DNA of 64,000 nucleotides, from the sequence record NC_010583.1. One strand, 5' to 3'. The notes beneath the pieces were generated by a model. The model saw only the letters and a program-made list of their open reading frames with translations, did no database searches and had not been told where the DNA came from. A program made the position numbers and the translations under genes. Source of the DNA: Escherichia phage Eps7. Positions 4,156-36,748 of the stretch are shown one piece after another; the stretch's first letter is position 1; every line of letters begins with the position of its first letter.

Positions 4156-4680
4156 TTAAATATCACCAATTCTTGTAAGAATGAAAGCGTTTTATCTGCA
4201 TTCTGTCCTGCCACATAGTCCATTCTAGTTGCCATTGAATTATAAGTAATATGATGATGCAGATGTACATCAGCAGATAATGGTGTGGCTGAAGTAATAG
4301 TAGAGATATACGCCATATCTAGATGATTTTTTGACATACATTTCAAGAAGCAGAGTTGCTCCCCCTAATACTACAGTTACCTCTTCCTTGAGAAAATCAG
4401 GCAGACGGTATCCAATGTTGCTTATGCGTGTAGCTGATCTTATAGAGTTCGGTAGTGGTCTATTTGCATAAATAAATAGGTCAGAATCTCCTAGTATTCT
4501 TTTTTGCAGAGTCTCAGGGAATGCTAACCAAGTTCCTGCTCCTACAATAATATTGTCAGGTGCCAGAGAATCCAATGTAGCATAGAAGATATCTAGTTCT
4601 TCTTTGAAAGAACCCCAGGGGAGCTTACCATTGAGGCCGAACTCCCCATTCGGCCCAGTTGCATAGATTGCTGCTATCAT
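4152..4680 (-). CDS. frd: dihydrofolate reductase, interrupted by a frameshift in a homopolymer
   Basis: N-terminal [22 protein letters not shown] and GGATLL motifs; frame is lost at T6 (4327-4332) and a DHFR-like C-terminus resumes in the overlapping 64-aa ORF; total ~166 aa. Confidence 0.8.
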
Positions 4681-6429: not shown

Positions 6430-8822
6430 TTATAATTGACAACCACCAGATGCGCATCCAGCAGCAGCTTCCTCTCCTGCACCTCCACCATTTTCAGTGT
6501 TGAAGTTTGCATAATAAAAGGTTTTCCAACCGTACTTAACAGCAGTCATAAAGTCACGAACTACTACTGGGCCGGGAATGATTTCATTCTCGAACTTGGT
6601 GTAGTCATAGTACATATTCGTACTGATAGACTGGCTGAAGAATTTCTGCATGGTTGCTACCCATTTGATCCACTCGATACGATCTACATCATAAGCCAGT
6701 TTATAGCTCATTAATGTATCCCAATCAGTTGCACCTGGAGCAATTGCAATTACTTTATTAACTGCACTACCCTTGATAGATACGATCTTACGGGGCGGTT
6801 CGATAGAGTTAGTAACACCTAGCAGTACAGAGGAACTTTCACCTGGCATCTGAGCAGTCAGAACAGAGTTGCGCATACCATATTTCAGAATATCTGCACG
6901 CAGAGATTCCCAATCCATTTCTAGACCTACAGTTACCAGTTCATCAACAGTTTTCTTGTACGTGTCGATTACCAGAGTTCCTTGCGAAGGCTTAGTACGA
7001 TTAAACCAGTCACATGCACCTTGTTCTTTAGCCAGACGTACAGAGGCTTTATGTAGGAAGTAGGACAGCTTTTCAGCTTCACGGTGAATCCAGTTACGTG
7101 CTTCAACACCTTCGTAAGCCAAACCTTCTGCTGCCATTGCACCTGCTGCGTTCATCAGACCAATACCAACGTTACGACGTTTCTTAGCCGTGTACTTCCA
7201 TAGTTGGGAATGGGTAATCCTGAATCTCGATGATTGTATCAACGAATTTCAGAAGGATGTAGCAAGTTTTCTCCCATTCAGCCAGAGATTCCATGCGGCC
7301 TAGTACAACACCACCTAAGTTACACAGAGATACTTCACCAATATCTTCTGGACGCATATCGTCTAACTGATCTTGGGTTTTATACAGTTCCGTAACGTGA
7401 TGGAATGGACGGGTGGCTGAGTAATTCAACACAAAAGGGTTGGTCATACGAATCGGGTCAAGGAAGTTACCATGACGGTTAGATTCACCAATGTGATGAG
7501 CATACATACGCCCTGTTTCCATACGGATACGTAACCAAGTATCTAGGATTTCTTTTGCAGAGATTCTAGGAGCTGCTGGAATTGTTTTTCCTTCGTGGTC
7601 GATCTTTGTAAGAGAAGCCACACGTTTCTCCGCTGCCACGTAGATTTCTTCAAACTTAGCCTCATCTTCACCATAAAACGCTTCATGAACTTCTGGTGCG
7701 TAGAAGTAGGACATTAGCGTAATATCTTCGTTTTTCAGGTAACGTTTTAACAGAAGGTTGTTAAAGCTCAGAGAATAATCCATCTTATCGATTTTATTCT
7801 CGTCTGTAGCACGTTGCTGCTTAACCTGCATCAACTGAATGATTTCAGGATCGAAGTATGGATAAGACACAGTAGCAGAACCGCCACGGGTTTGCTGAGT
7901 GTTAGCTTTTACTGATCGGTCAATGTGTCGATAATATGGCAGTTTTCCGGAATGCGGGAATGCCCCATTTCGCACCGGATCAGCAATTGATCGGCTTTCA
8001 AGATGATACCCGATTCCCGCTCTGGCTGCGACCATTTTGAAGACGATGTGCTCGGCTGTGTCGATTGAATCCAGCGTGTCAGTGGAATCCACGAGACAGC
8101 AACTAGCAAATCCACGGTCACTAGAGCGCAGGCCAACCAGTGGCGGCGTAGGAACGTTGATTTTGTGGAGCGACATTGCATTGTAGAGGTCGATTGCATC
8201 TAGGATTGTCCAGTTAGGTTGAGATAACATCGCCATTGCCATACCCATGTAGGCAAACTGCGGGGTTTCATAAATTTCACCAGTTGCAATATTACGACGA
8301 GAATACTTGTCGAAGAACTGTTTCAGTCCACCACTGGTGAATAAACGATCGCGATCATGATCAATAACTTGGTTCAGAGCGTCAAACTGATCATCGCTAA
8401 TCCATGCACTCATGTCTTCCCAGCGCCAACACGAACCATATGATCGTGGAAGAAACGCAGAGAAGGGGTTCAAAGGAATCATATAGGCGTTTACGCATCT
8501 GCGCAAGACGTAATTCCTTTGCTACAGTATCATATGCTGGGTTGTCTTTGATAAGACCTTCAGCGGCTTTAATTAACACATCTTGGAGGGTATCGGAATC
8601 TACAACACCTTTTGGTAGATTTTTCTGGGCAGACATAACGACGGCAGACCAACTTACGTCAGTTGCTTTACATGCCCATGCAGCCCAATCATTGAGTTTT
8701 TCAGGAGCAAAGTCCTGAACAGTACCGTCACGTTTAATTACTTTTTCAATACTATGGCTCATTGGGGTTTCCTTTTTGTAGTTATCAGGATTTAGGAAAT
8801 ATTCTACTTTGTTTTGGGTCAT
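6430..8822 (-). CDS. nrdA: ribonucleotide reductase class Ia alpha subunit, split over three frames by single-base indels
   Basis: ATP-cone N-terminus (8397..8822), catalytic core (7184..8506) and C-terminus GIGLMN..CASGGCQL (6430..7242) are collinear with E. coli NrdA; frame breaks at G4 (8465-8468), CCC (8419-8421) and about 7181-7190. Confidence 0.9.
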
Positions 8823-9129: not shown

Positions 9130-9429
9130 TTACACCTTCCCCATATCCTTAAAGATATCGTAGAATGCTTTAGACTCCGGTGAGCGAACGTTGTCGATCA
9201 GTTCGATCATAGAGAAAGGAGAGTTTTCGTACTTCTCATAGACTTCCATAAGAAGTGCTAGACCTGAATCACCCTTGATGTCTTTCTGAGCTATATCCCC
9301 ACAGATAATTAAACGACAATCTTGTCCTACACGAGTCAGGAGACAGATCATTGCTTCAACGGAGATATTCTGAGCTTCATCGACAATTACATAGGAGTTG
9401 TTGAATGTTGCCACGCTTTCTTGAACCAT
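9130..9429 (-). CDS. PhoH-like ATPase, C-terminal half only (Walker B onward)
   Basis: VIVDEAQN, LTRVG, GDIAQKD, SGL and VRS motifs; no Walker A upstream; an out-of-frame ATG with AGGAG RBS lies at about 9463. Confidence 0.65.
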   Translation of the reverse strand: MVQESVATFNNSYVIVDEAQNISVEAMICLLTRVGQDCRLIICGDIAQKDIKGDSGLALLMEVYEKYENSPFSMIELIDNVRSPESKAFYDIFKDMGKV

Positions 9430-9536
9430 TGCGGTTCTCTCTTTTTTGACGTGCTTTTCCCATAAATAACACTCCTATAGTGTACTTCGCTAACAGAGGA
9501 TCAACAAAAAGATCTTGTTTATCAACTTACAAATAT

Positions 9537-11695: not shown

Positions 11696-11729
11696 CAGCC
11701 AGATCGCTAGTCGATCTGGCTTTTATTTT
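11696..11729 (+). terminator. rho-independent terminator
   Basis: GCCAGATCG-CTAG-TCGATCTGGC followed by TTTTATTTT. Confidence 0.7.
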
Positions 11730-12080: not shown

Positions 12081-12284
12081 ATGAAGAACGTAAGACATCT
12101 TAAATATCGCTTAATTTACAACGGACGTATGGAAACAGAAGATCTAGCTCAGCTAGCGATCAATTCAGATGAAGTTACGGTTCGTGCTTTATCTATTGAG
12201 AAGCTGCGTGCTTCTTACGAAAATCGTATTATGGAACTGGAGGAGAAACTGTATGGACTTCTTGAATCAGAATCTAAAAAATAA
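12081..12284 (+). CDS. hypothetical protein (67 aa)
   Basis: AAGGAACAAGA-ATG RBS. Confidence 0.45.
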   Translation: MKNVRHLKYRLIYNGRMETEDLAQLAINSDEVTVRALSIEKLRASYENRIMELEEKLYGLLESESKK

Positions 12285-12447
12285 TCTAGAAAACATGCTT
12301 ATGGAGCAGTGGAACTCTGGGTATAATGCTGGGGTGGCTACTTGTATTGCGGGGTTGGATATGCTTATTAAGCAAGAAAAGGTACGTCCAGAAGAAGCAA
12401 TTCTACTCCAAAATATCATCGAAGGATTCAAGCAAGGAATCGTATAA
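12253..12447 (+). CDS. hypothetical protein (64 aa)
   Basis: GGAGGAG RBS 7 nt upstream of ATG 12253; overlaps previous ORF. Confidence 0.4.
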   Translation: MDFLNQNLKNNLENMLMEQWNSGYNAGVATCIAGLDMLIKQEKVRPEEAILLQNIIEGFKQGIV

Positions 12448-13261
12448 TGCGTAGACTAATCGTTGTTAGTGGTGCAGGTTTGAGTGTAGATAGTGGTGTT
12501 CGTGCTTTCCGTACTGATACTGCTAGTGGTAAAGCGTTGTGGGATGATTATGACCTAGAAGAGGTATGTAATATTCATGCCTTTCGTGGTAATTTTACCA
12601 TAAAACTCATATGTTTTACAACAAACGTCGTGAAGAGTTACAAACTGTTGAACCTAACCTAGCTCATTTGCGTATTGGTGAATGGTATAAACGGTATCCA
12701 AATCAAGTGGTAAACCTTACTACCAATGTTGATGATCTAATCGAACGTGCTGGAGTGCCGAGAGAAGATATACTCCATATTCATGGATATCTGAAAGAAA
12801 TTATTGTAGAGCATGCGTTCGACCAGACACGTGATGTTATTGATATTGGGTATAGTTCTATTGATCCAGATGACTTTGATTGGGTTAAACCTAACGTTAT
12901 CTTCTTTGGTGAGGTTGCTCCTGCCTATAAAACAATGTATGAGGTTTTTGATGGTATCACCAGTCATGATATGATCATCATTGTTGGGTGCTCTAACCAA
13001 GTAATTAACTTCTACTGGGAGCTATTTCCTGTTCTGAATCTTACTGCTGCAAAACTTATGGTAGTTAACTATTACGATAGTGCAGTAGCTATGGAACCAG
13101 GCTATCAGGGCATGACTCGTAGTGAAATGTATCAGTTAGAAGAACGTGGTATTCCTTACTGGAGTAAAGGTGCTGTGGATGCCTTTAGTGATCCCGATTT
13201 TATTGCTCGTGTGGAAGCTCATCTAGAAGGTAAACCCTATGTTCAACAAAAGCATGTGTGA
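12447..13261 (+). CDS. Sir2-family NAD-dependent deacetylase / ADP-ribosyltransferase-like protein, frameshifted
   Basis: VVSGAGLSVDSGVRAFR (GAGxS..SG..FR), TTNVDDLIERAG, HG, KPNVIFFGE, IIVGCS motifs; frame break at T4 (12594-12597). Confidence 0.8.
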
Positions 13262-13401
13262 TCTTTTAGTGTGGCCGGATGGTAGTTGGTGCTACCGTTT
13301 CGAATTTGCTACCGATGATTTCTCATGGAAGAGTGATGATTTCTGTGTTATCTATGAAGATACAGCAGAATGGAAAGAGTTCCTTATTAAGGAGGGAGAA
13401 T

Positions 13402-13587
13402 ATGGTGAAGAAGATTTTTAAGGGTATCTGGAAAGGTCTAGTATGGTTTGTCAACCTAATCGGTATGATTACCATTTATTCTCTGTTCCTATCTGTTATG
13501 TGGGGTAAAGGTGAATTGAAGGTTCCAGTTCCTTTTACTGATGAAGTTAAAGTCTGGACGTGGGATGCTACTGGTGGAAATAAGTAA
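13402..13587 (+). CDS. small membrane protein (61 aa)
   Basis: AAGGAGGGAGAAT-ATG RBS; hydrophobic segment GLVWFVNLIGMITIYSLFLSVMW. Confidence 0.4.
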   Translation: MVKKIFKGIWKGLVWFVNLIGMITIYSLFLSVMWGKGELKVPVPFTDEVKVWTWDATGGNK

Positions 13588-14080
13588 TACTCCTATAATT
13601 TTCCTGGATATTGATGGGGTGCTCAATTCGAGCATCTCTCACCATCATGCTCCAGATAGTGAAAAGCTATTCTTTGGTAGTGATTGGGTTTATAAGCCAT
13701 TACTCCAGGCTTTTCAGAACTTCCTTAAACCTTCTCCAATAATGATTGTTGGGGTATCTTCATGGTTTTCTGTACGAAACGAGATGGAGAACGTCCAGAG
13801 TATGACCGGGCTCGGTTTGATCGATCGTTTTCTTGGTACAACAGATTTTACTGGTGGCGGTTTATCTCGTGGTAATTCTGTCTTACGTTTCGTAGAAAAA
13901 CATAAGCTCAAGCATTGGTGCGTCCTAGATGATGCTGGTGCTATGATGTATCAATTTCCTACTGTTATTGTAAATGGCAGGACTGGAATAAACCTTCAAG
14001 ATTTAAATGCTATCAGCTATATGCTGGAGTTTAGTCCAGATCTTGAAATGTGTAAGGCTCTTCAGAAACTCAAGGTGTAA
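13541..14080 (+). CDS. HAD-superfamily phosphatase-like protein
   Basis: IIFLDIDGVLN (DxDG[V/T] motif I); true start may be ATG 13565. Confidence 0.6.
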   Translation: MKLKSGRGMLLVEISNTPIIFLDIDGVLNSSISHHHAPDSEKLFFGSDWVYKPLLQAFQNFLKPSPIMIVGVSSWFSVRNEMENVQSMTGLGLIDRFLGTTDFTGGGLSRGNSVLRFVEKHKLKHWCVLDDAGAMMYQFPTVIVNGRTGINLQDLNAISYMLEFSPDLEMCKALQKLKV

Positions 14081-14082
14081 AT

Positions 14083-14511
14083 ATGTTCGATAATCTTTTC
14101 ATGAAAGAGGTAAACCCTATGCTCCTCAACTTCTGGCGATCTCTCCCTGATGGTATGTATAATGAAACCATCAATCTGCTCAAGATTTGGTGTGAGAATA
14201 ACGATATCTTCTTATCCTTTAAAGGCCCACTAGAGGAAGCTCCGTGTATTGGAGTTAGCGTGGATTTAGGGGAGGGAGTAGAAGAGATTGTAGACTGGAA
14301 AGAACTAGATGAAATGGGTCTGGTTTTTGCCTTGAACCATAAGCTGTTTATGCCTGCAAATCACCGTCTTATTGTAAACTATCGCACTGGTGAAGCTCCT
14401 GCTTTCCAGGTAAATGAACGGGAGGGCTGGTCATATTCGCCCGAAGAAGTAAATGAGGGGATTCAGAAACTTCGTCGTTTCGGGTATATGATCCCAGGTT
14501 TAACTGCTTAA
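14083..14511 (+). CDS. hypothetical protein, tandem paralogue A
   Basis: shares W-EL-EMGL-ALN ... TGE-P ... R-GY-PGL pattern with the next ORF. Confidence 0.55.
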   Translation: MFDNLFMKEVNPMLLNFWRSLPDGMYNETINLLKIWCENNDIFLSFKGPLEEAPCIGVSVDLGEGVEEIVDWKELDEMGLVFALNHKLFMPANHRLIVNYRTGEAPAFQVNEREGWSYSPEEVNEGIQKLRRFGYMIPGLTA

Positions 14512-14520
14512 GGAGGCAGA

Positions 14521-14916
14521 ATGGAACAAGTATTTTGGCGTCAGATAGATCCTAGTTTGGTAGAGCGTGCTGAGGGGCTCCTTGCACGTTGGTTGGGGGT
14601 TGACAAGGTTAGTGTAACATTTCCGTTTACTTCTGTAACAGACCCTAGTGTAGGTGTCTTTGTGGACGAAGATGAAGATGATGGTTGGGAAGCTGACTGG
14701 AATGAATTGTCCAGTATGGGCTTGATTGTTGCCCTCAACTTCTCTATATTCCACCCACGTGGTTTAGCTATTACACGTGATCCCGAAACCGGTGAATCCC
14801 CTTATCTTTTGCAAGTAGAAGATGATATTTGGGAGTACACCGAAGATATTCTCGAAGAAGCTAAAGGTCAATTAAATCGCATTGGGATCTATGTTCCAGG
14901 CCTAAATGATGATTGA
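14521..14916 (+). CDS. hypothetical protein, tandem paralogue B
   Basis: paralogue of 14083..14511; AAGGAGG RBS. Confidence 0.55.
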   Translation: MEQVFWRQIDPSLVERAEGLLARWLGVDKVSVTFPFTSVTDPSVGVFVDEDEDDGWEADWNELSSMGLIVALNFSIFHPRGLAITRDPETGESPYLLQVEDDIWEYTEDILEEAKGQLNRIGIYVPGLNDD

Positions 14917-14939: not shown

Positions 14940-14967
14940 ACCGAGTCATTTTGGCTCGGTTTTCTCT
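14940..14967 (+). terminator. rho-independent terminator
   Basis: ACCGAG-TCATTTTGG-CTCGGT followed by TTTCTCT. Confidence 0.6.
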
Positions 14968-19314: not shown

Positions 19315-19540
19315 ACTAACTGATCTGTTAAAAGCTGGAGACGTGAAATATCTCCAGCGAGATAGCTGGAAGAACACCCGAGACTTTACATTCTTGTTAA
19401 AATTTGATGTAGATAGTGACACTGTTAAGCTATATGAGTGGCCTAGTATACACTGCGTACGCCCGATAGTAACAGTAGTTAATCTTAGTCTAGAAGAAGC
19501 TCTGGCCGACGATTGGGAGATCGTTGAACTAGATGTGTAG
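19307..19540 (+). CDS. hypothetical protein (77 aa)
   Basis: overlaps the preceding stop. Confidence 0.4.
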   Translation: MSKLTDLLKAGDVKYLQRDSWKNTRDFTFLLKFDVDSDTVKLYEWPSIHCVRPIVTVVNLSLEEALADDWEIVELDV

Positions 19541-22008: not shown

Positions 22009-22790
22009 TTGATGAAAATCGAAATTCCAACACAATGTCCCTCTTGTGGTTCTAAGCTAGATCTTGTCAACGGGCAATTATTCTGTAGGAATAAGTCCAA
22101 CTGTCCAGCGCAATCAAGTAAGTTAATCGAGAACTTCTGCACAAAAATGAAGTTAAAGGGCTTTGGCCCGAAAACTATTGAGAAGCTGGAGCTGACTAAG
22201 ATCTCAGAACTGTTTTACCTGACCGAAGAAGATTTGGTCGGAGCTGTGGGTAGCAAGGTTGCCGCTAAATTGATTAGCGAGTTAAATACAAGGTTCGCGG
22301 AGACATTGACTTTGGTTCAGTTCTCGGTTCTTTAGGAATTCCTCTTATTGGAGAGGTTGCAGCAAAGAAACTGTCCCAAAATTGCACTAGCTTCCACGAT
22401 GTGAAGGCTGACGGCAAGGCTGGAGAAAATTACAAAACCTGGCTAAATTCCCCACAAGGCAAGGATGTTATTGAATTACCGTGGAAATTCTCAACTGGTA
22501 TCCGAGGTGCTAAAGCTGACATCATCATTACAGATGATTTAGTTGCCCAGCCAAATGGAATCACGGTCTGTATTACCGGATCTTTGCAAGATTTTGCAAA
22601 TCGAACGGATGCAACAAACTATTTAGAAAGTCTAGGGTATACGGTTAAGAAGTCCGTTACCAAAGACGTCAAATACCTAATCTGTGAGGATGAATCAAAA
22701 CGTTCTTCCTCATCTTATAAGAAAGCCGAAACGAATGGGATAGAAATCCTGTCGATTAAAGAACTATTGGAGAAAAATAATAATGTCTAA
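22009..22790 (+). CDS. ligB: NAD-dependent DNA ligase, subunit B (Zn finger, HhH, BRCT), frameshifted
   Basis: [15 protein letters not shown] Zn finger, [10 protein letters not shown] Hh[19 protein letters not shown]; frame break about 22303-22312. Confidence 0.85.
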
Positions 22791-36371: not shown

Positions 36372-36600
36372 TTTTGCTGATCCTAATATGGTAGGGGTAG
36401 ATGTAGACCAACCTAATTTTTGCAAGATTGATATTAAATACGTTGAACCTGAGAAAATAGTATTGAGGGTTGATGTATCTGGTGTAGTAGAACAGTGGGA
36501 TGAAGAAGGATTTATCGCACTTTGCACTGAATCTCAAGATCATATGCTTAAAGCCATGCTAGCAGTATATAACTTAGGTAGTATTGCAGGTAGTAGATAA
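36334..36600 (+). CDS. hypothetical protein (88 aa), GTG start overlapping the dut 3' end
   Basis: GAGGAG RBS 7 nt upstream of GTG 36334. Confidence 0.4.
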   Translation: MEKAALEAQEVNNFADPNMVGVDVDQPNFCKIDIKYVEPEKIVLRVDVSGVVEQWDEEGFIALCTESQDHMLKAMLAVYNLGSIAGSR

Positions 36601-36606
36601 TAATAA

Positions 36607-36640
36607 ACCCCAGTGGACAATCCACTGGGGTTTTCTCTTA
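36607..36640 (+). terminator. rho-independent terminator closing the rightward early block
   Basis: CCCCAGTGGA-CAA-TCCACTGGGG followed by TTTTCTCTT. Confidence 0.75.
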
Positions 36641-36718
36641 TTTAGTAAGGAGTTGTTTTACTAATTCCTTTATTTTATTAATCTTTTTTTTTTTGAAAGG
36701 GTGCAAAACGAACCTCTT

Positions 36719-36748
36719 GCATTTTGCATTTTGCATTTTGCGTTTTCA
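36719..36748. repeat. tandem heptamer (GCATTTT) x4 next to a T11 tract at the convergent early/late junction
   Basis: TTGCATTTTGCATTTTGCATTTTGCGTTTTC; T11 run at about 36684-36694. Confidence 0.6.

What the first reader, a model, noticed from the sequence alone, without database searches (positions are those of the whole stretch)
12447..13261. Phage-encoded Sir2-family NAD-dependent enzyme in the early replication block
The ORF carries the Sir2 Rossmann signatures GAGxS..SG..FR, TTNVDDL..RAG and KPNVIFFGE. Sir2 domains are best known as NAD-depleting effectors of bacterial anti-phage systems, so a phage-borne copy may modify or ADP-ribosylate host or phage proteins, or interfere with NAD-based defence. 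There is no conserved zinc-ribbon Cys4. The gene is broken by one frameshift at a T-run.
Basis: partly seen in the sequence, partly recalled or inferred. Interest (0 to 1): 0.7.

Follow-up and report, generated by a model that had tools for sequence, protein, structure and literature searches.

The report
Frameshifted T5-type phage sirtuin gene
This is the already-annotated Sir2-like (sirtuin) gene of T5-family phages, broken here by a one-base deletion; it resembles bacterial CobB rather than anti-phage Sir2 effectors and always sits beside RNA-end-repair genes, so it is an ordinary known gene whose true substrate is still untested.

Summary
Window 12447-13261 encodes a 271-aa Sir2-family protein. 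A T4 run at 12593-12596 interrupts it where relatives carry T5. Pfam SIR2 scores 81.8 bits (E 7.8e-23). An AlphaFold model (pLDDT 91.8) best matches E. coli CobB, then Sir2Af1 and SIRT5. The zinc-ribbon Cys4 is absent.

The window is an EPS7-like T5-family phage. This gene is annotated "Sir2-like" in hundreds of such genomes. The T4 allele is rare: PSa2 shares it by descent, an error-rich third record also has it, no IMG/VR contig does, and 30 other relatives read in frame. Nothing supports programmed frameshifting, so this copy is probably inactive. The window also carries private indels that break nrdA, DHFR, PhoH and a ligase subunit, so resequencing is needed.

The protein matches no defence-system Sir2 model. 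Its orthologues always lie beside RNA-end-processing genes:
- a HAD "Swiss-army-knife" phosphatase in T5-like phages (window 13541-14080);
- RNA ligase 1, cREC, a kinase and a metallophosphoesterase in 133-150 kb phages.

This reproduces a 2022 in-silico proposal of a Tpt1/KptA-like, NAD-dependent RNA-repair role. Canonical lysine deacylation remains a strong rival. Verdict: already known, interest low to moderate.

The parts
12447..12596 (+). Sir2 gene, 5' segment: codons 1-50 in the starting frame. It contains the NAD-binding loop GAGLS (12471-12485) and F21-R22 (12507-12512).
   Evidence: Translation, alignment to intact relatives and invariant residues in the 41-sequence alignment.
12593..12596 (+). 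Frameshift site: a T4 run where relatives have T5 (AAT TTT TAC = N49 F50 Y51). This is a one-base deletion that shifts the reading frame by -1.
   Evidence: 30 of 31 relatives read in frame, and only PSa2 shares T4; the T4 pattern occurs in 0 IMG/VR contigs and the T5 pattern in 16.
12597..12662 (+). Out-of-frame tail of the truncated 71-aa product. It ends at the premature TAG stop at 12660-12662.
12596..13261 (+). Sir2 gene, 3' segment: codons 51-271 plus the stop, in the -1 frame. It contains Y58..R61 (12617-12628), TTNVDD (12719-12736), the catalytic H113 (12782-12784), KPNVIFFGE (12887-12913) and G181-C-S183.
   Evidence: Translation, CobB alignment, invariant columns, AlphaFold model and Foldseek search.
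13541..14080 (+). HAD-family phosphatase of the 'Swiss Army Knife' RNA-repair type (DIDGV motif). It is the conserved partner gene of the sirtuin and is intact in this window.
   Evidence: Pfam PF18143 HAD_SAK_2, E 2.6e-19, 70.4 bits against a cut-off of 27.5. It lies next to the sirtuin in all 28 T5-like loci examined. It lies upstream of the sirtuin in three more diverged T5-like contigs.
13239..13587 (+). Two small ORFs (13239-13421 and 13402-13587) between the sirtuin and the HAD gene. Their function is unknown, and they are absent in some T5-like phages where the HAD gene directly follows the sirtuin.
   Evidence: phrog_5116 and phrog_11166, unknown function. One search shows the HAD start at about 3776-3794 in L011, L016, L021 and L022.
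11697..11721 (+). Terminator-like hairpin after nrdD. It marks the upstream boundary of the transcription unit that holds the sirtuin and the HAD gene.
   Evidence: A terminator plus promoter is annotated at the equivalent place in AKFV33.
14940..14960 (+). Terminator-like hairpin after the second DUF7415 gene. It marks the downstream boundary of the same unit.

Best explanation
Window 12447-13261 is the T5-family phage sirtuin, the orthologue of the T5 'putative Sir2-like protein' YP_006930. In this phage lineage it is inactivated by a 1-nt deletion in a T5 run. The intact protein is a stand-alone, zinc-less sirtuin of about 270 aa that derives from CobB/SIRT5-type (class III) sirtuins. It keeps every residue needed to bind NAD+ and cleave the nicotinamide-ribosyl bond. 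These points are shown by the sequence, the predicted structure and the comparisons with relatives. The proposed function is inferred from gene neighbourhood and has not been demonstrated. The enzyme would work with the co-transcribed HAD 'Swiss-army-knife' phosphatase as the NAD+-consuming step of an RNA (probably tRNA) end-healing pathway. It would transfer ADP-ribose from NAD+ onto a phosphate left on damaged RNA. This would be a 2'-phosphate or terminal phosphate, by analogy to Tpt1/KptA. The phosphate would then be removed as an ADP-ribose phosphate, which the partner phosphoesterases process further. In this window the gene yields only a 71-aa fragment (49 native residues plus F50 and a 21-residue out-of-frame tail), so the step is probably missing in this phage. 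Rough probabilities: Sir2 family 0.99; frameshift real in the sequence as given 0.99; frameshift biological rather than a sequencing error about 0.8; functionally tied to RNA-end processing about 0.6; acting directly on an RNA phosphate about 0.4.
For: Family: Pfam SIR2 scores 81.8 bits. PHROG 2162 'Sir2' matches at E 1e-115. The AlphaFold model has pLDDT 91.8 and pTM 0.89. The top Foldseek hits are CobB 1s5p/6rx* (E about 1e-16, TM 0.82), then Sir2Af1 and SIRT5.

Catalytic set: GAGxS, F21-R22, Y58-x-x-R61, T93-N94-V95-D96, H113-G114, K148-P149, F153-F154-x-E156, G181-x-S183 and N208 are all invariant in 41 clade members of 54-86% identity.

Frameshift: the window has T4 where relatives have T5. 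PSa2 carries the same allele and is 100% identical from codon 40 to the stop.

Context: the HAD_SAK_2 neighbour is identified, and the sirtuin-HAD pair occurs in 28 of 28 T5-like loci. The pair persists with the order inverted in Erwinia phage KEY and two metagenomic T5-like contigs. In all 7 loci from 133-150 kb phages, the 53-66% identical orthologue sits among RNA_lig_T4_1, cREC, an AAA_33 kinase, a metallophosphoesterase and an ATP ligase. A marine relative lies in an operon with a NadR-like NMN adenylyltransferase/kinase, with HAD_SAK_2 nearby. A bacterial zinc-less relative lies next to a metallophosphoesterase. Terminator-like hairpins bracket the sirtuin-HAD unit.

Published proposal: Iyer et al. 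2022 (PMC9503650, section 3.7.3) reached the same neighbourhood-based prediction, naming the T5-like phage SP15 sirtuin+HAD pair.

Substrate loop: the Gly of the FGE loop, which contacts the peptide backbone in canonical sirtuins (established knowledge), varies in 11 of 41 members, and VxP is replaced by V-I-N/D.
Against: No biochemical data exist for any member (literature searches). The protein keeps the Y-x-x-R motif, which in SIRT5 and CobB binds the carboxylate of succinyl-lysine, along with the whole deacylase catalytic set, so ordinary protein deacylation would explain its conservation equally well. T5-like phages carry no RNA ligase, cREC or polynucleotide kinase next to the gene, and BLAST finds none in the 64-kb window, so a complete heal-and-seal pathway is not evident here. 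T4-type healing (phosphatase plus kinase plus Rnl1) leaves no 2'-phosphate, so the need for a Tpt1-like step is not obvious. One 127-kb phage context shows no recognisable RNA-repair neighbour apart from a ligase 2.7 kb away. Gene neighbourhood shows linkage, not chemistry.
Confidence: 0.45

Rival explanations
1. The protein is a canonical NAD+-dependent protein lysine deacylase (deacetylase or desuccinylase), like CobB. It would act on host or phage proteins, for example by reactivating adenylate-forming enzymes or ligases whose catalytic lysines become acylated. Its position beside RNA-repair and ligase genes would then reflect its protein targets, or simple co-expression in the early region.
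For: The best sequence and structure matches are CobB, Sir2Af1 and SIRT5. The Y58-x-x-R61 motif aligns with FYNARR of CobB and is invariant, as are the catalytic His and the F-F-x-E loop. The sub-threshold NCBIfam hits are all CobB or deacylase models. In the 133-150 kb phages the gene lies between RNA ligase 1 and an ATP-dependent DNA ligase. An earlier in-silico paper on Vibrio phage sirtuins argued for deacetylase function despite the loss of zinc (PMC5107563).
Against: All CobB equivalog scores are far below their cut-offs: 97.7 against 243 and 85.3 against 320. The zinc module that shapes the peptide cleft has lost its Cys ligands. The FGE Gly is variable and VxP is altered. The recurring partners are phosphoesterases (HAD_SAK_2, metallophosphoesterase, cREC) rather than macro-domain or esterase genes, which would be the expected handlers of O-acyl-ADP-ribose.
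Confidence: 0.3
2. The protein would be an NAD+-depleting or NAD+-modulating enzyme, or a protein ADP-ribosyltransferase, used against host NAD-based defence systems or to take over the host.
For: Sirtuin chemistry permits NAD+ hydrolysis and ADP-ribosyl transfer (established knowledge). T5-like phages also carry a NadR-like NAD+ salvage gene (PSa2_00106), and a marine relative is operonic with a NadR-like gene. The phage therefore does manage NAD+ supply.
Against: There is no match to any PADLOC defence model or to Pfam SIR2_2. No sensor or partner domain typical of defence Sir2 systems is present. No macro-domain partner is present, as there would be in SirTM-type ADP-ribosyltransferases. 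Depleting NAD+ would harm a phage that depends on an NAD-dependent DNA ligase. The neighbourhood evidence points elsewhere.
Confidence: 0.08
3. The frameshift is a sequencing or assembly artefact, and the phage actually carries an intact, functional sirtuin gene.
For: Against both PSa2 and PMBT27, the window carries about 15 private 1-2 nt indels in about 50 kb. These break DHFR, nrdA (four frame pieces), PhoH and the NAD-ligase B subunit. That pattern is typical of an error-prone record. The site is a homopolymer.
Against: Unlike the other indels, this one is shared with the independently deposited PSa2 record. PSa2 lacks the window's private indels and is annotated with the same split, SIRT5_1/SIRT5_2. 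A third record, MET_P1-197_41, also has T4, but that record is itself error-rich. AKFV33's annotation numbering implies two EPS7 CDSs at this position (AGC_0116/0117). A 2018 comparison lists the EPS7 Sir2-like CDS among its low-homology or missing genes (PMC5816814).
Confidence: 0.2
4. The T-run is a programmed -1 ribosomal frameshift or transcriptional slippage site, so the full-length sirtuin is still produced at a regulated level.
For: A -1 slip of tRNA-Phe on U-UUU (12593-12596) would give exactly the native N49-F50-Y51 sequence. This follows directly from the sequence.
Against: There is no X-XXY-YYZ heptamer. The RNA downstream folds no better than shuffled sequence, z -0.11. Thirty of 31 relatives encode the protein in a single frame, and several replace the run with synonymous AAC TTC or AAC TTT. 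A run of four T is too short for efficient polymerase slippage (established knowledge). There is no Shine-Dalgarno-like stimulator upstream.
Confidence: 0.02

Closest known systems
T5 'putative Sir2-like protein' (YP_006930) and its orthologues in Demerecviridae (PHROG 2162), e.g. PMBT27 XCD29495, AKFV33 orf105, PSa2 SIRT5_1/SIRT5_2
   Same: It is the same gene. It has 79-99% protein identity to these orthologues and occupies the same position between nrdD and the origin-binding protein gene. It has the same downstream HAD gene.
   Different: The window copy, like PSa2's, carries a 1-nt deletion that truncates the product to 71 aa.
E. coli CobB and class III sirtuins (SIRT5, Sir2Af1): NAD+-dependent lysine deacylases
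   Same: It has the same fold (Foldseek E 1e-16, TM 0.82 to 1s5p). It shares the GAGxS, FR, xNxD, HG, FFxE and GxS motifs and the Y-x-x-R acidic-acyl motif.
   Different: Identity is only about 25%. The zinc-binding cysteines are absent. The FGE Gly is variable and VxP is changed to V-I-N/D. Scores fall below all NCBIfam CobB cut-offs. The gene is phage-borne and linked to phosphoesterase and RNA ligase genes rather than to acetyl-CoA synthetase or cobalamin genes.
The phage 'RNA-repair sirtuin' clade proposed by Iyer, Burroughs, Anantharaman and Aravind 2022 (PMC9503650, section 3.7.3)
   Same: It matches their third neighbourhood type, sirtuin plus a Swiss-army-knife HAD phosphatase in T5-like phage SP15. 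Its orthologues match their second type, with T4-like RNA ligase, cREC and a kinase. Both were re-derived independently here.
   Different: There is no difference in kind. The proposal itself remains untested, and this copy is frameshifted.
Tpt1/KptA RNA 2'-phosphotransferase
   Same: The proposed working analogy is as follows. NAD+ is attacked at C1'' by an RNA phosphate oxygen, nicotinamide is released, and the 2''-OH then resolves the adduct. This parallels the two-step sirtuin mechanism (established chemistry applied here by inference).
   Different: The fold and family are unrelated, so this would be an analogue and not a member. The activity is not demonstrated.
Defence-associated SIR2 NADases (ThsA, DSR1/DSR2, SIR2-HerA, pAgo-associated SIR2)
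   Same: They share the Sir2 superfamily Rossmann core and the use of NAD+.
   Different: There is no PADLOC or SIR2_2 profile match. The protein has no sensor or partner domains and belongs to a different subfamily, that of the true sirtuins.

Membership tests
Sir2/sirtuin superfamily (Pfam PF02146) | Profile match above the curated gathering threshold | tested here: met
   81.8 bits against a cut-off of 24, E 7.8e-23, covering profile positions 1-178 of 180.
Sir2/sirtuin superfamily (Pfam PF02146) | Rossmann-fold large domain plus a small domain, superimposable on solved sirtuins | tested here: met
   AlphaFold2 model with pLDDT 91.8. Foldseek gives 291 PDB hits at E<=0.001, and every hit shown is a sirtuin, with CobB at TM 0.82.
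Sir2/sirtuin superfamily (Pfam PF02146) | NAD-binding and catalytic residues (GAGxS, FR, xNxD, catalytic His-Gly) | tested here: met
   All are present and invariant in 41 clade members.
Sir2/sirtuin superfamily (Pfam PF02146) | Uninterrupted reading frame in this window (a functional gene) | tested here: not met
   A 1-nt deletion at 12593-12596 leads to a premature stop at 12660-12662.
Sir2/sirtuin superfamily (Pfam PF02146) | NAD+-dependent catalytic activity | not testable with these tools
   This needs purified protein. No published assay was found.
Class III sirtuin / CobB-type lysine deacylase | Closest sequence and structure relatives are CobB and SIRT5, with the Y-x-x-R motif present | tested here: met
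   1s5p at E 2e-18 and the Foldseek top hits. FYNKRR aligns with FYNARR of CobB, and Y58 and R61 are invariant.
Class III sirtuin / CobB-type lysine deacylase | Zinc-binding cysteines in the small domain | tested here: not met
   There are no Cys residues in aa 115-148. The count is 0 in 32 of 41 clade members and at most 2 in the rest. A more distant relative, P0152, still has CxxC...CxxC, so the loss is derived.
Class III sirtuin / CobB-type lysine deacylase | Score above the NCBIfam CobB/deacylase model cut-offs | tested here: not met
   Best scores are 97.7 bits against 243 (NF001753) and 85.3 against 320 (NF040867).
Class III sirtuin / CobB-type lysine deacylase | Conserved peptide-backbone-binding loops (FGE Gly, VxP) | tested here: inconclusive
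   F153, F154 and E156 are invariant, but G155 varies in 11 of 41 members. VxP is replaced by V186-I187-N/D188.
Phage RNA-repair-associated sirtuin clade (Iyer et al. 2022) | Conserved neighbourhood with a Swiss-army-knife HAD phosphatase (T5-like type) | tested here: met
   PF18143 at 13541-14080. Pairing occurs in 28 of 28 T5-like loci, with inverted order in three others.
Phage RNA-repair-associated sirtuin clade (Iyer et al. 2022) | Orthologues in other phage groups lie beside RNA ligase 1, cREC, a kinase and a phosphoesterase | tested here: met
   Seen in 7 of 7 loci from 133-150 kb phages.
Phage RNA-repair-associated sirtuin clade (Iyer et al. 2022) | NAD+-dependent removal or ADP-ribosylation of an RNA phosphate | not testable with these tools
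   This is a prediction only (PMC9503650).
Defence-associated SIR2 NADase effectors | Match to defence-system SIR2 profiles, with a fused or adjacent sensor or partner (SLOG, HerA, pAgo, DSR C-terminal domain) | tested here: not met
   No PADLOC families matched and there is no SIR2_2 hit. The protein is a stand-alone 271 aa, and its neighbours are small ORFs and the HAD gene.
Tpt1/KptA 2'-phosphotransferase | Homology to the Tpt1 fold or family | tested here: not met
   Only sirtuin matches appear in Pfam and PDB. The resemblance would be functional analogy only.
Programmed -1 frameshift gene | A slippery heptamer, a downstream stimulatory structure, and conservation of the two-frame arrangement | tested here: not met
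   There is no X-XXY-YYZ heptamer. The folding z-score is -0.11. Thirty of 31 relatives read in a single frame, with synonymous changes in the run.

The most novel reading that the evidence does not exclude
The T5-family phage sirtuin, together with its orthologues beside RNA ligase, cREC and kinase genes in larger phages, is not a protein deacylase. It would instead be a nucleic-acid-directed enzyme: a sirtuin-fold analogue of Tpt1/KptA. It would use NAD+ to remove or ADP-ribosylate a 2'-phosphate or terminal phosphate on damaged tRNA, or alternatively strip an N-acyl group from RNA or aminoacyl-tRNA. This would form a phage counter-measure to host RNA-targeting defences. The frameshifted allele in this window would then be a natural knockout of that step.
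Probability: 0.35. Interest if true: 0.7.

Novelty: already known. Interest (0 to 1): 0.27.

Why it matters
As a genome feature it adds little. The gene has been annotated as Sir2-like in T5 and hundreds of its relatives, and the RNA-repair hypothesis for this clade was published in 2022. What remains open is the biochemistry. No phage sirtuin of this clade has been assayed, and the neighbourhood evidence makes a specific claim that a simple nicotinamide-release assay could test. If the claim held, it would extend sirtuin chemistry from acyl-lysine to RNA phosphates and reveal a new NAD+-dependent arm of phage RNA repair. The frameshifted EPS7/PSa2 allele is a ready-made natural mutant for comparison with intact relatives such as PMBT27. 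In practice, the window sequence appears error-prone, so gene-level conclusions from it should be checked by resequencing.

Tried and rejected
1. Defence-type Sir2 was rejected. The PADLOC scan gave no hit, and Pfam at E<=1 gave only PF02146.

2. Programmed frameshifting was rejected. There is no slippery heptamer, the downstream RNA structure has z -0.11, and the two-frame arrangement is not conserved.

3. I looked for the rest of an RNA heal-and-seal set in the window. tblastn with the L027 RNA ligase 1, cREC, kinase, metallophosphoesterase and ATP ligase proteins found nothing. The T5-type module therefore appears to consist of the sirtuin and the HAD phosphatase only.

4. I searched for the T4 allele elsewhere. 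No IMG/VR contig carries it, against 16 with T5. Among the 40 GenBank phage rows listed (of 206 records matched), it occurs only in PSa2 and the error-rich MET_P1-197_41.

5. I tried to detect relaxed selection after the frameshift. The test is uninformative because the window and PSa2 are identical downstream of codon 40.

6. Four literature searches for experimental work on phage or T5 sirtuins found only annotations and two in-silico surveys.

7. Two search calls failed on term syntax, and one search failed for the same reason.

8. The PSa2 label 'nicotinamide mononucleotide transporter' for the 64-aa upstream ORF was checked. It has no Pfam support, and its PHROG has unknown function.
Full report
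**1. What is in the sequence**

The stretch 12447-13261 holds two overlapping ORFs on the + strand: 12447..12662 (71 aa) and 12611..13261 (216 aa).
- GAGLSVDSGVRAFR
- TTNVDDLIERAG
- KPNVIFFGE

The second ORF's frame is open from 12593. The two frames meet at a run of four T (12593-12596).

Megablast places the window in the T5 family (Demerecviridae, Epseptimavirus). The best match is Escherichia phage PSa2, species Epseptimavirus EPS7, at 98.3% identity. In total 416 phage records match.

Aligning the 5' part of the gene with PSa2, PMBT27 and AKFV33 shows the cause of the break. The intact genes read AAT TTT TAC (N49 F50 Y51). The window and PSa2 read AATTTTAC, one T short. Adding one T gives a 271-aa ORF that differs at 3 residues from the intact PMBT27 protein.

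**2. Is it a Sir2 protein?**

It is. The evidence from sequence and structure agrees:
- The repaired protein matches Pfam SIR2 (PF02146) at 81.8 bits against a cut-off of 24, E 7.8e-23, over the whole profile.
- It matches PHROG 2162 'Sir2' at E 1e-115.
- Its best PDB sequence match is E. coli CobB 1s5p at E 2e-18, followed by Sir2Af1/2 and SIRT5.
- An AlphaFold2 model built on 41 homologues is confident (pLDDT 91.8, pTM 0.89).
- Its best Foldseek matches are CobB (E about 1e-16, TM 0.82), then Sir2Af1 and SIRT5.

The following residues are invariant in the 41-sequence alignment: G9-A-G-x-S13, F21-R22, Y58 and R61, T93-N94-V95-D96, H113-G114, K148-P149, F153-F154-x-E156, G181-x-S183 and N208. 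Y58 and R61 form the Y-x-x-R motif of class III sirtuins and align with FYNARR of CobB.

The zinc ribbon is absent. The segment that forms the zinc module in other sirtuins (aa 115-148) still folds as three strands in the model. It has no Cys in this protein and never four in any clade member. A more distant relative, P0152, retains CxxC...CxxC, so the zinc-less state is derived.

**3. What kind of Sir2?**

It is not the defence kind. None of the 5027 PADLOC models matches, and there is no SIR2_2 hit. The protein stands alone, with no sensor domain.

It is closest to housekeeping class III sirtuins but is not a CobB orthologue. All NCBIfam CobB and deacylase models score far below their cut-offs, at best 97.7 bits against 243.

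A profile search of 1.84 billion representative proteins finds a tight core of about six 50%-identity clusters at 245-448 bits. Below that lies a continuum of short sirtuins; all eight sequences read from the upper part of this range (P0126-P0142) lack the zinc cysteines, whereas P0152, lower down, retains them. The 120 best close homologues (49-99% identity), where contig size is informative, lie on contigs of phage size.

**4. The frameshift**

All 30 other relatives examined encode an uninterrupted 258-278 aa protein with the peptide AFRGNFYHKTH conserved. Several write N49-F50 as AAC TTC or AAC TTT. The T-run itself is therefore not conserved.

The T4 pattern occurs in no IMG/VR contig, whereas the T5 pattern occurs in 16. 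In GenBank phages only PSa2 and MET_P1-197_41 show it. The MET_P1-197_41 record breaks the gene in several further places and looks error-rich.

The window and PSa2 are identical from codon 40 to the stop. They differ only in a patch of seven codons at positions 28-39. They therefore share one allele by descent, and the mutation is too recent to show decay.

Programmed frameshifting is not supported:
- There is no X-XXY-YYZ heptamer.
- The downstream RNA folds no better than shuffled sequence, z -0.11.
- The two-frame arrangement is confined to this lineage.
- The internal ATG at 12611 has no Shine-Dalgarno sequence, and its product would lack the GAGxS and FR elements.

The most likely reading is a null allele.

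**5. A caveat on sequence quality**

Against both PSa2 and PMBT27, the window carries about 15 private 1-2 nt indels in about 50 kb. Mapping 20 PMBT27 proteins onto the window shows five broken genes:
- DHFR is split at about 4327.
- nrdA falls in four frame pieces.
- PhoH lacks residues 20-158, a 408-nt deletion.
- The NAD-ligase B subunit changes frame at 22290.
- The sirtuin is broken at 12596.

This many broken conserved genes suggests an error-prone record. The sirtuin indel is the only one shared with the independent PSa2 record, which is why I rate it about 0.8 likely to be biological. Resequencing is still warranted.

Two further observations fit the window being EPS7 or a near-identical phage. 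AKFV33's annotation cites EPS7 genes AGC_0115 and AGC_0118 on either side of the sirtuin, which implies two EPS7 CDSs between them. A 2018 comparison lists the EPS7 Sir2-like CDS among its low-homology or missing genes (PMC5816814). The identification of the window with EPS7 is an inference.

**6. Surroundings and the best functional clue**

Terminator-like hairpins at 11697-11721 and 14940-14960 bracket a unit. It holds three small ORFs, the sirtuin, two small ORFs, a 179-aa ORF at 13541-14080 and two DUF7415 paralogues.

The 179-aa ORF is a HAD phosphatase of the 'Swiss Army Knife' RNA-repair family: PF18143, E 2.6e-19, full-length match, with a DIDGV motif.

The pairing of sirtuin and HAD gene is very stable:
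- The HAD gene follows the sirtuin in all 28 T5-like loci examined. It sometimes abuts the sirtuin directly.
- In three more diverged T5-like genomes the order is inverted, as HAD, then a small ORF, then the sirtuin.

In all seven loci from 133-150 kb phages, the 53-66% identical orthologue instead sits among other RNA-end-processing genes:
- a T4-type RNA ligase 1
- a cREC (cyclic-phosphate-processing receiver) protein
- an AAA_33 polynucleotide-kinase-like protein
- a calcineurin-like phosphoesterase
- an ATP-dependent ligase

Two further contexts are consistent with this pattern. A marine relative is operonic with a NadR-like NMN adenylyltransferase/kinase and has HAD_SAK_2 nearby. A bacterial zinc-less relative lies next to a metallophosphoesterase. 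One 127-kb phage context is uninformative.

The recurring partners are thus phosphoesterases and ligases that heal and seal RNA ends. Macro-domain genes and protein-modification genes do not recur.

**7. How it most likely works**

What is shown: the protein has an intact sirtuin NAD+ pocket and catalytic histidine, and it is genetically linked to RNA-end-processing enzymes in at least three gene arrangements.

What is inferred: the enzyme cleaves NAD+ and transfers ADP-ribose to an anionic oxygen on its substrate. Given the partners, the best candidate substrate is a phosphate on damaged RNA. The reaction would be a Tpt1/KptA-like removal of a 2'-phosphate, or ADP-ribosylation of a terminal phosphate. 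The HAD, cREC or metallophosphoesterase enzymes would act in one of two ways. They could prepare the RNA end, or they could process the ADP-ribose phosphate product.

This is the proposal of Iyer et al. 2022, who named the T5-like phage SP15 sirtuin+HAD pair explicitly (PMC9503650, section 3.7.3). I re-derived the neighbourhood evidence independently.

Two weak sequence features fit a non-peptide substrate. The Gly of the FGE loop varies in 11 of 41 members, and VxP is replaced by V-I-N/D.

Several points count against the proposal:
- The full deacylase residue set, including Y-x-x-R, is retained.
- The T5-type module lacks a ligase and a kinase.
- T4-type healing leaves no 2'-phosphate.
- No enzyme of the clade has been assayed.

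My estimates are about 0.6 that the protein is functionally tied to RNA-end processing, about 0.4 that it acts directly on an RNA phosphate, about 0.3 that it is a canonical lysine deacylase, and under 0.1 that it is an NADase or anti-defence enzyme. In this window the step is probably missing altogether.

**8. Comparison with what is known, and verdict**

The gene is the orthologue of the T5 'putative Sir2-like protein' and is annotated as such in many records. Its family, its lack of zinc (noted for Vibrio phage sirtuins in PMC5107563) and its RNA-repair neighbourhood (PMC9503650) are all in the literature. It is a member of the Sir2 superfamily. It resembles but fails the tests for CobB orthology. 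It fails the tests for defence SIR2 and for programmed frameshifting. It could only be an analogue of Tpt1, never a member.

Novelty: already known. Interest is low to moderate. The finding itself is ordinary, a known gene with a lineage-specific frameshift in a possibly error-prone record. It does, however, point to a cheap and decisive biochemical experiment on an untested prediction.

Noticed in passing
window 4158-4680, 6433-8822, 9133-9463, 22012-22787: Relative to both PSa2 and PMBT27, the window has private indels that break four conserved genes. DHFR is split at about 4327. nrdA falls in four frame pieces. PhoH has a 408-nt internal deletion that removes aa 20-158. The NAD-dependent DNA ligase B subunit changes frame at 22290. 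There are about 15 private 1-2 nt indels in about 50 kb. This suggests an error-prone record or a decayed laboratory stock.
   Followed up: partly
window 13541-14080: An intact HAD_SAK_2 'Swiss Army Knife' RNA-repair phosphatase lies 280 nt downstream of the sirtuin. It is annotated only as 'hypothetical protein' in PSa2, PMBT27 and AKFV33.
   Followed up: yes
window 14083-14511 and 14521-14916: Two tandem paralogous DUF7415 genes (31% identical to each other) follow the HAD gene in all T5-like loci. They are absent from the diverged T5-like contigs and from the large-phage contexts. Their function is unknown.
   Followed up: no
window 13541-14080; L033 (Th1) 2444-2956: phrog_18062 is labelled 'Sir2 (NAD-dependent deacetylase)', but it matches the C-terminal half of the HAD phosphatase (E 1.6e-54) and only weakly the sirtuin (E 4e-06). 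RefSeq Th1 gp093, the HAD gene, carries this apparent mislabel.
   Followed up: partly
window 12253-12447: The 64-aa ORF just upstream of the sirtuin is labelled 'nicotinamide mononucleotide transporter' in PSa2. It has no Pfam match, and its PHROG (5827) has unknown function. The label looks unfounded.
   Followed up: partly
window 12528-12563 (sirtuin codons 28-39): Seven of these twelve codons differ between the window and PSa2, while the remaining 230-odd codons of the gene are identical. This looks like a short recombination or gene-conversion patch just upstream of the frameshift.
   Followed up: no
L057 4001-5888; L058 531-4423: In a marine (TARA) phage-like contig, a zinc-less sirtuin relative overlaps the start of a 389-aa NadR-like protein (CTP_transf_like plus a kinase domain). 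A 277-aa HAD_SAK_2 protein lies 2.3 kb downstream. This links the sirtuin, NAD+ salvage and the HAD phosphatase. PSa2 also carries a nadR-like gene about 18 kb upstream of the sirtuin, outside the window.
   Followed up: partly
L059/L060 4001-5659: A bacterial chromosomal context, flanked by TRAP and ABC transporter genes, holds a zinc-less sirtuin of the wider family directly followed by a metallophosphoesterase gene. The sirtuin-phosphoesterase pairing therefore also occurs outside phages.
   Followed up: no
window 19377-19483 and 36400-36740: Two short hypervariable stretches differ from both close relatives. The second includes copy-number variation of a TTTTGCA-type 7-nt repeat (36717-36740) and a variable T-run at 36684.
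   Followed up: no
L032 (Salmonella phage MET_P1-197_41, PV785641): This 41.7-kb 'complete genome' record breaks the sirtuin into at least three ORFs, and its neighbouring genes are truncated as well. It is probably a low-accuracy assembly, so its T4 allele is weak evidence.
   Followed up: partly
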